DNA of 64,000 nt from Octopus vulgaris (Eukaryota): the NCBI GenBank assembly GCA_951406725.2, contig OX597832.1:66836001-66900000 (forward strand), read 5' to 3'. The position numbers were made by a program, and so were the translations under genes. Positions within the stretch are counted from its first letter, which is position 1; each line of letters starts with the position of its first letter. Under the pieces are notes generated by a model. That model had not been told where the DNA came from and did no database searches. It was given only the letters and a program-made list of their open reading frames with translations. This document shows, in pieces, positions 7,118 through 41,120 of the stretch.

Positions 7118-7152
7118 ATATCGACAGGTTTCGCTATCGCTATTCATGATAT
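7118..7152 (-). ncRNA. Minimal hammerhead-like fold with A3-U8 core variant
   Basis: Minus strand reads ATATC-ATGAATA-GC-GATA-GC-GAAAC-CT-GTC-GATAT: 5-bp stem I, 2-bp stem II, GUC site. Confidence 0.5.
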
Positions 7153-7467
7153 TATGTTTTACTTATTTGAATATTCATTTTTTCTTAAGAAGAAATTTTG
7201 TACATGTTGTGTGTAATGATATTTACGAGTGAATTACTTCACAAGCAGAGAAATAAGGGGAGATAATTGGTTATCGTTATTATTTTTATTTTTATGGGTA
7301 AGGGAGATAACTGTTCAGCTTTCGGTAATGGGAGGGGAATATATATGTACAGACAATGTGTGTATATATATATATATATATATATATATATATATATATA
7401 GTAATAGTATTACAACAATAGAATGAATGAGACCGCGATATTATGTAAATAGAGGAATTTAACTGTA

Positions 7468-7687
7468 ATATAATATGTGAAAATTATTCGGTTGCTATAA
7501 TAAAACACCGAGTTTCGGATGTTGGGGCGCAAAACTGCTCCGGCATGTCGCCATTCATCAATGCAATCAAAAATATTTTCATAGCATTTCTCGATTGCCT
7601 CAATAACTGACACGGAGCAGTTTTCCGCCCCGATATCCGAAACTCAGAGTCTTATTATGGCAACCAAATAAATGTCACATATTATAT
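7468..7687. repeat. ~75-bp imperfect inverted repeat (7468-7542 / 7613-7687) between (TA)n tracts, containing a damaged HHR (7602-7656, +)
   Basis: Arms are reverse complements. The plus arm reads AATAA-CTGACAC...TCC-GAAACTC-A-GAGTC-TTATT. Confidence 0.7.
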
Positions 7688-8771
7688 CGCATTATTGCAT
7701 ATATATATATATATATATATATATATATATATATATATATATATATATATATATATATATATATATATATATATATACATATAGAGAGTTTACAATTTAA
7801 AAGAAAAAACTAGGGGAATAATTACAAGATAGCTAAACGTTGCTTAAGTGTTCCAGGATTTAAATCCGGAATCGTAAGTCGTCGTATTTAGTAGTAAATA
7901 GGAAGAGTGAATAAGGACACAAACTCTCGGGATGTTGTTAGACCATATATATCTTGAATTTGTCAACATATGTTTCGATGGATTCACTTCAAAATTCCCG
8001 ACAGTGTAAACCATGGTCAGCAATTCATCAATCTTATGAAGAAGGCTATTGAATAAGGAGACGAAGTCTAGGCATATTGTTAAATCCTTTGTCTTGAAAT
8101 TCTTCTAATATCTATCGACGGATGCACTCCAAAATGTGTGTGTGTGTGTATGTGTTTGTATGCGTGTGTGCGGCGTATGTGTGCATAAATGCATCTATAT
8201 AGATTCTCTTAACTCATATAGTATATTCTTAATTATATATTCTGTATCACTGGGCATGTGATAGATACACAATACTTAATCTATAAGTGTGCGTTTTGGA
8301 TTGATGTTCATTGCGGCAACATATTTTCAGGTTAAATTTTTTTTACGTCTGGAAAGAGTAACCCTTGTCTCCAAGTAAATTATCACCATTTCAAAATCAT
8401 CAGTTTGTTACATGAGATTTGAAGAAACAACAATTACATAAAATTTGAAGCTATTGAAGCAATATTTGATAAAGGAACATCTTTAGAAATGTGTTAATAT
8501 GAAATCTTGAGAGAAAGTAAACCTGAAGGTTATCATGTTTTATGATTTCTACATCGAATGTTATACATTTACAAGAGAAACCTTGAAAGTAAATTAAAAT
8601 AATATTTTGTATCAAACACAATGGAATAAATAGGATAAATATTTTTAGAAGATTAAGAAACGCACAAACTCGCATTAAGATTGTTATCGATGTCATCATC
8701 ATCATCATTTTCATCATCGTCGTCGTGGTCGTCATCATCGATGTTTTTGTTATCATTAGTATTGTTATCAT

Positions 8772-9270
8772 TGAGTCAAACAGCAGCACATGCCATTGAA
8801 GTGGTACTAGGGTATAAGCGAAGGCCAAAACACCATTTATGACTACCTATCAATATATGCTACACCGCGAAGATGCATCACATTCATGTATTCGTGGCAT
8901 GGGGATCTCTTATCAAGATAAACAGCCTATCACCTTGCCGGTGAGACTCAGAATATACTTCAGCCGACTATCTCATCCCGCAAAAATTCCTTAATAAGAC
9001 GGAGCATCCATGTTTCCAAAGGTGAATTATTCAAAATCCAAAGAAATCCTCTAAGCACATGGCTATGATGTACCCCCACTACTCCTGCTTGTGATTCAAT
9101 ATGCAAATATCGTCAGCCAAGTGACAAACAAATCTGTGGTATTGAGCAGAGTATTTGCTGAAGCTCTTCATGTACACTATGAAAAACACATGTACATGAT
9201 AACACATCCTTCCATTTAAGATGAGAAGCCATAAGAGTCACTGATAGGTATTGCGTCAGAGCATGAATGT
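8772..9270. mobile_element. Non-autonomous ~500-bp element, diverged copy of 10124-10680
   Basis: Collinear shared blocks ATCAAGATAAA, CATGTTTCCAAAGGTGAATTAT, AAATCTGTGGTATTGAGCA and AGAAGCCAT; flanked by ATC/TTA triplet repeats. Confidence 0.75.
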
Positions 9271-9304
9271 TGCTGTCATTGTTGTTATTATTATTATCAT
9301 TATT

Positions 9305-9850
9305 TTTATTTTGTCTATTATGAAAGAATGTCGGATAGATCTTAATTACCGGGCTTGAAATCAGGCAATAACAAATCACCATAGGTTTCATGTATTGCGT
9401 TCTCCTGTGACTCAAAGAGGCAACACTCTCCTTAGAATGCGAGCTGTACCCAACAATGTCGTCTTCTGGATGACCTCGAGCCTGAGAGCAGCTCCAATAT
9501 TCTTAATATGTTTTTCAAAGCCTAATGCTCCAATTATCACCGCTATCATCATTATTTCCCTCCGCGCTATCACCATTAATTCCCCATGTCACATAACTTT
9601 CTTATCTCGTCCGCATTGGGTGGTATTTCTCAATATTTTCTATTTCCTTAATTTTCACCCTCGAAAAGCCTGCTATTGTAACATCGATTAACTTTACTTA
9701 TTTTCTAATTTTTATAGAATAGATAGATATATGGTCGTCCCGCCTCTATGACATGGTAGCACTGCATGTTAAAATCCCAGAGTATTTTCTATTGTTCATT
9801 TCTTATTACTCCATCTGGCTTCAGTTCATACCATTGTTTGGCTCTCTAGA
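9305..9850 (-). mobile_element. R4/Dong non-LTR retrotransposon 3' fragment (degenerate RLE domain + 3' UTR)
   Basis: Manual translation of the minus strand gives RAKQWYELKPDGVI..KILWDFNMQC..EAGRP and ...LEVIQKTTLLGTARILRRVL*, homologous to the C-termini at 10862 and 15484. Confidence 0.8.
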
Positions 9851-38251: not shown

Positions 38252-39303
38252 ATATAAGTGTTGTCTGTTTATACATAAACACTGTTTCATACTTTCAGTT
38301 TAGTCTTCCTCAAATCACTCTATCGCTAATTTACTCTCTTCCAAGAACATTTTCACTCACTGTTATCTGTTAGCTTCCCATACATTTTACTCATGTATCT
38401 ATCAGCGTGATAGACAGAAACAAATATTACATTTACTTTCATTTTATTCGTCGCACACTGTGTGTGTGCGTTTGCGTGTGGTGTAAACCAGACTAAGAAA
38501 AGCATTTGACACACACACAAGAATGTGAGTTTTCTGTAAATTTTGCTTAATTGGAGTTTAAATTTTAAAAACTGGACCTGGCATGACGCGATGCATTGTA
38601 CTCTTAAAAATGCTAGGTAAATTGTAATTGAAGAAATGCTATATTGTAGATTTCTATAACTCCCAAAGGGAGGCAGATAAAATCTGCCTTTTATAATAAG
38701 AGATATAGACAATACACGATGGCGAAGGTAAGCATCTCATATAAGGAAAAATAACTTTTCTTACTCTGTTTTTTTTTTACTATACTTTCAGCGTACTTCA
38801 TCGCACCAAGTCTTTTTACACGAAAGAAATGTGTCAGATATATAGAAAAAATATCTGTAGTTATAACTGCTGGAGGGTTCTCTAAACGCTGATCATAAAC
38901 GTCAAGTTATATGAATAAATAATGTTATACAAGCACGCGCAAACACGTACACACACTCACGCATACACACACACACATATATACATACATGTTTGTGCGA
39001 ATGTATGAATAAACGTATACATGGATATTCACACGCCTGAATTAATAATGATGTATGTATATATATATATATATACATATATATATTTATTTATATATAT
39101 ATATATATATATATATATACATGTATATATGTATATATGTATATATATACATGTGTATATATATTCATATATATATATATATATATTAAATAATATATAT
39201 ATATATATATATATATATATATATATGTATATATATATGTGTATATATATTCATGTATATATATATTCATATATATATATATATATATATATTATATAGT
39301 TAA

Positions 39304-39453
39304 GTTAAGTTAAACATCCTATCACCACATCCCACCGATGCAATGATGAGACGGGTCACAGAAGTTGTTTGTATACAAGAATACAAACCTACTCTCAACC
39401 GAAAATCCGAATGGAGTAACATCCAGATCCCATTCAGGAGGATCATTCTATAA
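39304..39453 (+). pseudogene. Penelope-like GIY-YIG C-terminal scrap next to (TA)n
   Basis: Manual translation VKLNILSPHPTDAMMRRVTEVVCIQEYKPTLNRKSEWSN..*, fitting the R..E...I....P.LN.K.EW pattern. Confidence 0.6.
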
Positions 39454-40152
39454 CCACCCTTCTCTCTCGTTTACATGTAATCCTTACATACACGTTGCAA
39501 TGCGTGGTGCTAAAACACTTATGTGCAGTTATACATAACCGTATAAGCGTACTTTGTTTGTTACGTATGTGCGTGTGTGGTGCTAAATAAATGCACATGC
39601 ATGTGTATGTATGGGTGTATGTATTTATTGTATATGTATGCGTTTATGCATATATATATAATAATAAATAAAAGAGCAGATCGGTTAATATAATGCATGT
39701 TCGATTTTTAACCGTTGCCCTTGAATACTGTGTCATATATTTTGTATGTATGTGTGTGTGTGCGTATGCATGTTTATGCGTGTGTGTGCATGTGTGTGTG
39801 CATGTGTGTGTGTGCGCGCGTGTGTGTGTATGTGTGTAATAGGTCATATGTATGTTGAAGTGGATAAGCATATATGAGTATATAATTTAAGGTTATAAGT
39901 GTATTTATGAGTATGTCTATATGATTGTGTGTACTTGTTTATATGTATATGGTTATATGTGCACTGTTGCACCTAAACGTTGTATCCATTCACCGTTAGA
40001 TGATGATGAGAGGAACAAACACACACCCACATACATATATATATATATATATATATATATGTGTGCGTCTATACAAACATATATGTGTGTATATATATAT
40101 ACAACCTTCAACAAGGTAACAGTCATGTACACAACTTAGACGGGCACATACC

Positions 40153-40387
40153 TATTTCTTTATTACCCACAAGGGGCTAAACATATAAGGGACAAACAAG
40201 GACAGACATAGGTATTAAGTCGATTACATCGAGCCCAGTGCGTAACTGGTGCTTAATTTATCGACCCCAAAAGGATGAAAGGCAAAGTCGACCTCGGCGG
40301 AATTTGAACTCAGAACGTAACGGCAGACCAAATACCGCAAAGCATTTCGCCCAGCGTGCTAATGCTTCTGCCAGCTCGCCGCCTTCA
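40153..40387 (-). mobile_element. SINE family B, full length, 13-bp TSD (ACGGRCACATACC at 40140-40152 and 40388-40400)
   Basis: tRNA-like head GGCGGCGAGCTGGCAGAA with GAGTTCAAATTCC B-box; TSD visible. Confidence 0.88.
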
Positions 40388-41069
40388 ACGGACACATACC
40401 AGTACACGGACATACGTTCACATGCACATACACATGTACACACACACACAGACGCGTCTGCCCGTTCTCCTAGATACTCACATGCATACGTAGCACATAA
40501 GTACAAACATACATACATACCTGCGTATGTGCATACACACGTACATACGCACGTACATGTACACACACACATACATACGCACATGCATACGTGCGCATAT
40601 ACATATATACGCACATGCGTACGTACGTGCATACACACATACATACATACATAAACACATACATACGTATATATATATATATATATATAACCTGGGGGGA
40701 AAAAAGAGGTAAGTAATAGTAAAACAAAAGTTTTGTGATATAGAGATAAGTGACTGATAATAGGTCTTAGAGTTTTGTCGTGGGGGTGAGGGTCGTAAAT
40801 CACTTCCTAGCTTCGGCGGGGGAGGTTGAAATTTGATATTGTTGTGATGAGTGGTCAGTCTACATCTATCCCTCACTACAGGTTCATAGCTTTCAGTTTA
40901 TAGTGTGTGTGTGCGTGCATATACACACATACATATATATACATACATACACACGTGCGTACATACATACATGCATGCTTACATACATGCGTGCATACAT
41001 ACATACACACATACATACGTACATATATATAACGAACTAACTGTTACTTTCTCAGATGCAGCACGGATT

Positions 41070-41120
41070 TTTGACAGTGAACAGGTCGCGGTCTTAAAGC
41101 GGCGAAAATATTTTGACAAA
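41070..41120 (+). ncRNA. Hammerhead-like fold, G3-C8 core variant
   Basis: TTTGACA-GTGAACA-G-GTCGC-ggtcttaaa-GCGGC-GAA-AATATT-T-TGACAAA. Confidence 0.55.

What the first reader, a model, noticed from the sequence alone, without database searches (positions are those of the whole stretch)
7118..41120. Hammerhead cores sampling all four Watson-Crick pairs at the tertiary 3-8 position
Seen: in the same type-I scaffold (stem I - N3 U G A N N8 A - stem II - GAAA - short stem III - UH), the cores are CUGAAGA and CUGACGA (300-398, 24429-24505), GUGAACA (22708-22758 and 41070-41120), AUGAAUA (7118-7152), and UUGAUAA and UUGAAAA (20029-20072, 29756-29798). In each of these, positions 3 and 8 stay complementary. 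Known: C3-G8 is a tertiary Watson-Crick pair, and compensatory swaps partly rescue activity. Inference: these PLE families may have diversified their ribozyme cores by covariation, which CUGANGA-based searches would miss. Caveat: the U3-A8 and A3-U8 cases are single old copies and could be decay.
Basis: partly seen in the sequence, partly recalled or inferred. Interest (0 to 1): 0.88.

Follow-up and report, generated by a model that had tools for sequence, protein, structure and literature searches.

The report
Swapped-core hammerheads in Penelope retrotransposons
Jumping-gene families in this animal genome carry predicted self-cutting hammerhead RNAs whose key core base pair occurs in all four Watson-Crick forms; two of these (G-C and A-U) I found in no paper on natural hammerheads, and the pattern likely reflects selection for pairing, but cutting is untested.

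Summary
Confirmed and extended. All seven motifs are present. The variant cores are family traits, not decay:
- G3-C8: 5,917 genome matches against 368 with another base at 8.
- A3-U8: 96 of the first 100 of 454.
- U3-A8: fixed in both window families, one of them very young.
These four families lie 3' of Penelope-type GIY-YIG genes. With positions 3 and 8 left free, 19 of 19 family consensuses were Watson-Crick. A further lineage switches directly between A-U (30) and G-C (21), with 5 mismatches among 56. Relatives from other organisms mostly keep C-G, so G-C is likely derived.

Limits: the rule is not strict, since a U.G lineage amplified (60 of 100). Independent switches are few, one young family has a weak stem I, and cleavage is untested. 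U3-A8 and U.G are published for Penelope elements; natural G3-C8 and A3-U8 were not found in 10 searches, but key papers were unavailable. The scan earlier noted single G3-C8 candidates in other genomes and U3-A8 in this one. Verdict: new variant of a known kind.

The parts
300..398 (-). Type I minimal hammerhead, canonical C3-G8, 70-nt stem II arm, 8-nt palindromic stem III; an inverted copy with a 3-nt core deletion lies within 500-653 (+)
   Evidence: family consensus C-G 6 of 6; no ORF link found
7118..7152 (-). Family A hammerhead, A3-U8, 2-bp stem II, C17; the window copy has one decay change in the palindrome
   Evidence: 96 of first 100 of 454; 3' of GIY-YIG in other copies
20029..20072 (-). 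Family U1 hammerhead, U3-A8, very young family, weak proximal stem I, in the 3' repeat of the adjacent element
   Evidence: (32 of 32); full element with two hammerheads 4.8 kb apart in L301
21044..21739 (-). 5'-truncated Penelope-type GIY-YIG endonuclease frame of family U1 (RT C-terminal remnant continues to about 22060)
   Evidence: Pfam PF01541, E 7e-7
22708..22758 (-). Family G hammerhead, G3-C8, unpaired G before a 5-bp stem II, U17; solo 3' fragment between (TA)n tracts
24429..24505 (-). Canonical C3-G8 hammerhead; a tandem copy with a 3-nt deletion lies at 23884-24021
   Evidence: no ORF link found
29756..29798 (-). Family U2 hammerhead, U3-A8, A17; the window copy has decay in stems I and II
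   Evidence: (36 of 37 U-A); 3' of GIY-YIG in L109, L119
39304..39450 (+). Last residues of the family G endonuclease (86% identity), upstream of the 41070 hammerhead
41030..41055 (+). Branch-point-like and 3' splice-site-like sequence 21 nt upstream of position 3 of the family G hammerhead (splicing inferred, not shown)
   Evidence: (206 exact genome copies)
41070..41120 (+). Family G hammerhead, G3-C8, second copy; the element ends near 41250 in (TA)n

Best explanation
These are minimal hammerhead motifs in the terminal repeats of several Penelope-like retrotransposon families, and the 3-8 core pair has been swapped family by family to U-A, G-C or A-U, likely because selection on a predicted self-cleaving fold keeps the two positions paired whatever their identity. 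Shown: the motifs, their fixation per family, their place 3' of RT-GIY-YIG genes (four families), and the covariation. Inferred: C-G is ancestral; switches pass through single-mismatch or wobble states in a master element, which then amplifies; the 6-nt palindromic stem III makes the RNAs work as dimers; and they would cut tandem read-through transcripts after position 17, probably slowly or with help from the element's protein. Probability that G3-C8 and A3-U8 family RNAs cleave measurably as dimers: about 0.6.
For: 19 of 19 family consensuses that passed a scan blind to 3/8 are Watson-Crick: C-G 12, U-A 5, G-C 1, A-U 1, out of 92 repeat families examined; permutation p 5e-7 if families were independent, which they are not. 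In a 25-row table (one low-complexity U-A row dropped, seven targeted rows added) mutual information is 1.41 bits for 3-8, with 0 of 20,000 shuffles reaching it, against 0.12-0.31 and p 0.44-0.88 for four control pairs. Identical-flank test: A-U 30, G-C 21, other 5 of 56; wider pattern A-U 54, G-C 39, other 7 of the first 100 of 216. Sister pairs differ by double changes: family G and a C-G family with the same stem II type, endonucleases 51% identical, support 99/97; two families sharing loop II are C-G and U-A. One copy (L134) whose endonuclease is only 64% identical to family A keeps A3-U8 while position 7 and stem I change. Relatives of the family G protein in marine metagenomes: three C-G motifs and one U-A motif passed the scan among 24 loci. 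No variant of 2% or more at G3 or C8 in four runs labelled with four organisms. The C3G/G8C double mutant partly restores cleavage in a Penelope hammerhead (PMC11167929, passages) and is the one rescue in deep mutagenesis (PMC9901934, passages).
Against: No cleavage data. A U3.G8 lineage amplified (60 of the first 100 of 293), and by eye it also lacks the first pair of stem I. G3.G8 copies exist (35 of the first 100 of 368 non-C8 matches; G8 in 5 of the first 100 in the oldest subfamily). The youngest family, with intact frames, has a weak stem I, and its lowest-energy fold is not the hammerhead. In deep mutagenesis U-A and A-U did not rescue (PMC9901934), and hammerhead mutants did not affect insertion in vitro (PMC11167929). 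Independent switches number only about four to six. The second G-C/A-U lineage was found with a pattern that forced G3 and C8 and was not linked to an ORF. Counts from listings are hand counts of the first rows by position, and inverted twin copies count twice.
Confidence: 0.72

Rival explanations
1. The ribozymes are weak or dispensable passengers. The swaps were fixed in a few founder elements long ago and have since been copied passively, so today's variant families need not cleave.
For: Cleavage is not needed for insertion in vitro (PMC11167929). An amplified U.G lineage with a damaged stem I, minor G.G copies, and a weak stem I in the youngest family. Naiads proliferate without canonical hammerheads (PMC8557442, passages).
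Against: Each large switch ends in a pair (24 of 25 rows Watson-Crick). Subfamilies keep the swapped pair, the palindrome and a paired stem I while loops and position 7 change.
Confidence: 0.17
2. An overlapping signal drives the change at position 3 and position 8 follows. G3 completes a pyrimidine-rich CAG that could serve as the splice acceptor of the terminal-repeat intron.
For: Both G3-C8 lineages read CAG ending at position 3. Family U2 has CAG just before position 3. In Drosophila virilis the intron end maps to helix I (PMC4209133, text parts 1-2).
Against: Family G has a better acceptor with a branch-point-like sequence 21 nt upstream. The second lineage has both CAG and CAA forms. No spliced joint was seen in contigs, which is uninformative.
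Confidence: 0.08
3. Chance motifs or decay of canonical copies.
For: Four of the seven window copies fail a strict scan. Shuffles give 8-13 hits per 800 kb. Rfam hammerhead models do not hit the copies tested.
Against: Fixation in hundreds to thousands of copies with reversed-pattern controls at 0. Consensuses are better hammerheads than single copies. Position matches known Penelope hammerheads.
Confidence: 0.03

Closest known systems
Minimal hammerheads of metazoan Penelope-like elements, including the U3-A8 variant of Schistosoma mansoni Cercyon elements (Cervera and de la Pena 2014, PMC4209133; text parts 1-2 of 4, supplement file 2 part 2 of 3 plus search passages; file 1 not held)
   Same: Type I layout, short palindromic helix III, optional unpaired base between 9 and 10.1, place in the terminal repeats. 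U3-A8 (about 1,300 hits in S. mansoni) and a U3.G8 example (Saccoglossus) are already listed there.
   Different: No G3-C8 or A3-U8 core in the parts read. Here both are fixed in multi-copy families, all four pairs occur in one genome, and one lineage carries both A-U and G-C.
Natural core variants in Perreault et al. 2011 (PMC3088659; abstract, section on core variation, reference passages)
   Same: First natural C3-G8 to U3-A8 covariation; weak 2-bp stem II tolerated.
   Different: Only U3-A8 is named in the section read; figures and supplements not seen.
PAc hammerhead of the Anolis Poseidon element (Frangieh et al. 2024, PMC11167929; passages)
   Same: A Penelope hammerhead in which engineered G3-C8 partly restores cleavage; cleavage needs the element's protein.
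   Different: There G3-C8 is an engineered mutant; here it is the wild type of a family with at least 5,917 matching sites.
Neptune / Nematis type EN+ Penelope-like elements (Craig et al. 2021, PMC8557442; passages)
   Same: C-terminal GIY-YIG with a CX2-5CxxC linker, (TA)n targets, partial tandems and inverted 5' copies.
   Different: Clade names were not tested, since no reference set was available. Families U1, U2 and A group apart from family G on the endonuclease tree.

Membership tests
Minimal type I hammerhead of Penelope-like elements | Invariant core U4 G5 A6, A9, G12 A13 A14, A15.1-U16.1, and H17 not G | tested here: met
   family consensuses
Minimal type I hammerhead of Penelope-like elements | Canonical CUGANGA strand (C3-G8) | tested here: not met
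   G3-C8, A3-U8 or U3-A8 in four window families; met only at 393 and 24501
Minimal type I hammerhead of Penelope-like elements | Watson-Crick complementarity of positions 3 and 8 | tested here: met
   19 of 19 families; 102 of 108 sampled copies; exception: U.G lineage outside the window
Minimal type I hammerhead of Penelope-like elements | Stem I closing the core | tested here: inconclusive
   met for G (6 of 6), A (5) and U2 (5 of 6); weak for U1 (1 contiguous, 4 of 6)
Minimal type I hammerhead of Penelope-like elements | Stem II opened by G10.1-C11.1 | tested here: met
   G-C in G and A; G.U wobble in the U1 and U2 consensuses
Minimal type I hammerhead of Penelope-like elements | Palindromic minimal helix III that allows dimers | tested here: met
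   6-nt palindromes in all four variant consensuses; predicted dimer pairing through the palindrome for A and U2 but not for G or U1
Minimal type I hammerhead of Penelope-like elements | Site-specific self-cleavage after position 17 | not testable with these tools
   only contigs were available
EN+ Penelope-like element | RT followed by a C-terminal GIY-YIG endonuclease, hammerhead in the flanking repeats | tested here: met
   U1 full element L301; G in L291-L295 (GIY-YIG hit, RT motifs by eye); A and U2 by endonuclease remnants
EN+ Penelope-like element | Partial tandems, inverted 5'-truncated copies, microsatellite targets | tested here: met
Neptune or Nematis clade | Placement with named reference RTs | not tested
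   only the CX2-5CxxC linker was seen by eye; no reference sequences
Non-LTR retrozyme | Non-coding tandem monomers, each with a hammerhead (definition from search listings) | tested here: not met
   the four variant families are 3' ends of coding elements; no tandem array of them in the window
Rfam hammerhead families | Covariance-model match | tested here: not met
   no hammerhead hit at E up to 10 in two window copies and six loci, two of them with canonical cores, so the test is insensitive to minimal forms

The most novel reading that the evidence does not exclude
Penelope lineages use the 3-8 pair as a tuning site. In their dimeric or protein-assisted setting all four Watson-Crick pairs, including A3-U8, which did not rescue in deep mutagenesis of a standard hammerhead, give active ribozymes of different speed. 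The genome then preserves the stepwise path of compensatory evolution of a tertiary pair (U-A to U.G, A-U to G-C, a G.G remnant), and a sizeable share of animal retroelement hammerheads has been missed.
Probability: 0.35. Interest if true: 0.72.

Novelty: new variant of a known kind. Interest (0 to 1): 0.52.

Why it matters
The C3-G8 pair is established, so the covariation confirms rather than overturns the structure. What is new, if the literature gap is real, is natural G3-C8 and A3-U8 cores fixed in successful retrotransposon families. Repeated restoration of the pair is genetic evidence that Penelope hammerheads are under selection for the active fold, which bears on an open question: their function is unclear, and cleavage was dispensable in the one in vitro system. 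Near-identical natural A-U and G-C forms and a U.G lineage give ready-made constructs for that test. About a quarter of sampled copies here would be missed by CUGANGA descriptors.

Tried and rejected
Rfam: no hammerhead among the 150 of 234 window matches shown or in focused searches; uninformative for minimal forms.
Expression: no RNA holder listed. Contigs of four guessed-RNA runs gave no cut-site or splice information.
G.G as the ancestral state of family G: G8 copies are more diverged (6.2% against 4.6% and 1.3%; 7, 52 and 26 copies) and 5 of 7 share old-subfamily markers, but even the oldest subfamily is G-C in 86 of 100. Kept only as a weak hint.
Spliced genomic copies of family G: no clear case among held loci.
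Family s189 (U-A, two copies, low complexity) was dropped from the 25-row table.
My family scan missed 2-bp stem II with 5-nt loops and imperfect palindromes; those families were added by pattern searches.
The endonuclease tree has 6 open forks and long branches, so it cannot order the U-A and A-U events.
Papers not held: Przybilski and Hammann 2007, Lunse et al. 2017, Nelson and Uhlenbeck 2008, Scott et al. 2013, Lee and York 2008, and a guessed id for a 2012 review. The first two, or their supplements, could hold natural G3-C8 or A3-U8 cases or rate data.
Further papers checked by passage with nothing on these pairs. PMC3884650 mentions G3-C8 only as a lab variant.
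Full report
Setting. The window lies in a 2.8-Gb genome. It is 35% G+C and rich in microsatellites, with RT and GIY-YIG remnants. It looks octopus-like; that is my inference and was not tested.

Observation. All seven motifs are in the sequence, with complementary positions 3 and 8. A strict scan passed three of them and one further canonical motif at 56453. In 800 kb of evenly spaced genome, a scan blind to positions 3 and 8 found 29 motifs, against 8-13 per shuffle and 6 in reversed DNA.

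Are the variant cores family traits? Yes. For each variant I fetched the 30 best genome matches and aligned them. Best matches are biased towards the query, so I also used position-ordered pattern searches. Family G gave 5,917 matches with G3-C8 and 368 with G3 and another base at 8. Family A gave A3-U8 in 96 of the first 100 of 454. Family U1 is U-A in 32 of 32 aligned copies, with its listed matches 99-100% identical; U2 is U-A in 36 of 37. Consensuses repair the defects of the window copies. Counts from listings are my hand counts, and inverted twin copies count twice.

What carries them. Families U1, U2 and A lie 250-950 nt 3' of GIY-YIG frames that are 50-62% identical to each other. L301 is a full U1 element, with two hammerheads 4.8 kb apart around an ORF1 and a 781-aa RT-GIY-YIG frame. 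Family G lies about 1 kb 3' of a distant RT-GIY-YIG protein. Most of its copies are 200-nt 3' fragments in (TA)n, often with inverted 5' copies. The endonuclease tree puts G with a C-G sister family (99/97, 51% identity), apart from the U1/U2/A group, whose inner order is open. The two canonical window families were not linked to an ORF.

Is it covariation? Of 92 repeat families examined in all held sequence, 19 had a consensus that passed the scan, and all 19 were Watson-Crick at 3-8: C-G 12, U-A 5, G-C 1, A-U 1. Four of the 19 were enriched by my targeted fetches. In the unbiased 1.4-Mb sample, 108 scored copies were C-G 75, U-A 14, G-C 12, A-U 1, mismatched 5, gapped 1. Across 25 family rows only the 3-8 pair shows mutual information above shuffles; families are related, so the p values overstate the case.

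Direct switches. A pattern for 2-bp stem II motifs gave 3,008 matches; the first 100 were U-A 62, A-U 27, U.G 7, other 4, C-G 0. Non-G3 matches with the family G stem II (2,016) are mostly C-G sister families. A search forcing G3 and C8 found a second G-C lineage (124 matches, control 16) with a paired stem I and the ACCGGU palindrome. With 3 and 8 freed and the flanks fixed, it is A-U 30, G-C 21, other 5 of 56, and A-U 54, G-C 39, other 7 in the first 100 of 216 under a wider pattern. This is one double substitution copied many times, but it is the cleanest case. Whether the two G-C lineages arose separately is open, because they share sequence around the core. Among 24 metagenome loci related to the family G protein, four passed the scan: three C-G and one U-A. 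G-C is therefore likely derived. Four public runs labelled with four organisms show no variant of 2% or more at G3 or C8.

Results against a strict rule. A U3.G8 lineage amplified: 60 of the first 100 of 293 matches, all with U3. By eye it also lacks the first stem I pair. G3.G8 copies exceed what C-to-A changes suggest (G 35, A 18, T 47 of 100) and lean to the old subfamily, but they remain a minority there. U1, the youngest family, has a weak stem I, and its predicted fold is not the hammerhead. Predicted dimers pair through the palindrome only for A and U2.

Mechanism. Established knowledge from the papers read: minimal Penelope hammerheads cleave weakly and as multimers (PMC4209133). In a Penelope hammerhead C3G or G8C abolishes cleavage, the double change partly restores it, cleavage needs the protein, and insertion in vitro does not need cleavage (PMC11167929). 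In deep mutagenesis only the G-C swap rescued (PMC9901934). I infer that master elements passed through a mismatch or wobble state, regained a pair and amplified, and that selection acts on a slow, dimer- or protein-dependent cleavage of read-through transcripts (0.72). Rivals: passive copying of dispensable ribozymes (0.17), a splice acceptor driving G3 (0.08), chance or decay (0.03). Nothing here shows cleavage.

Novelty. Natural U3-A8 is in Perreault 2011 and, for Penelope elements, in Cervera 2014, whose supplement also lists a U.G core. Ten full-text searches found no natural G3-C8 or A3-U8. The library lacks several key papers and supplements, so this is 'not found', not 'absent'. Earlier unchecked notes of this scan report single G3-C8 candidates in other genomes and U3-A8 families in this one; I did not test the former. 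Verdict: real, a new variant of a known kind, interest 0.52.

Noticed in passing
window 6691-6800 (-) and 31000-31050 (-): A repeat with CUGAUGA and a short hairpin but no following GAAA; 3 hits in the 1.4-Mb sample. It may be one of the rearranged hammerheads that earlier scan notes describe in this genome.
   Followed up: no
   Followed up: partly
window 45681-45775 (-): A copy of the commonest C-G family, with U4 changed to C.
   Followed up: partly
window 270-653: A long inverted duplication of a hammerhead-bearing repeat; it produces spurious microRNA-precursor hits in Rfam.
   Followed up: partly
L301:3834-5162 (-): The young U1 element has a separate 443-aa upstream frame with no Pfam match, overlapping or abutting the RT-EN frame, whereas canonical EN+ elements are described as single-ORF.
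   Followed up: partly
window 20491-20701: A 93-nt tandem repeat in the U1 3' repeat, with several TGACGTC and CCAAT-like promoter motifs (names recalled).
   Followed up: no
L294:5633-5864: In family G a (TACA)n-rich stretch lies between a possible donor and a strong acceptor, suggesting an intron of about 220 nt that ends just before the hammerhead; many truncated copies begin at that acceptor.
   Followed up: partly
window 10862-13074 and 15818-17626 (-): Non-LTR RT remnants with zf-RVT domains, unrelated to the finding.
   Followed up: no
L348:2487-2535: A distant relative of the family G protein (26% identity) from a metagenome carries a U3-A8 hammerhead, likely an independent switch.
   Followed up: partly
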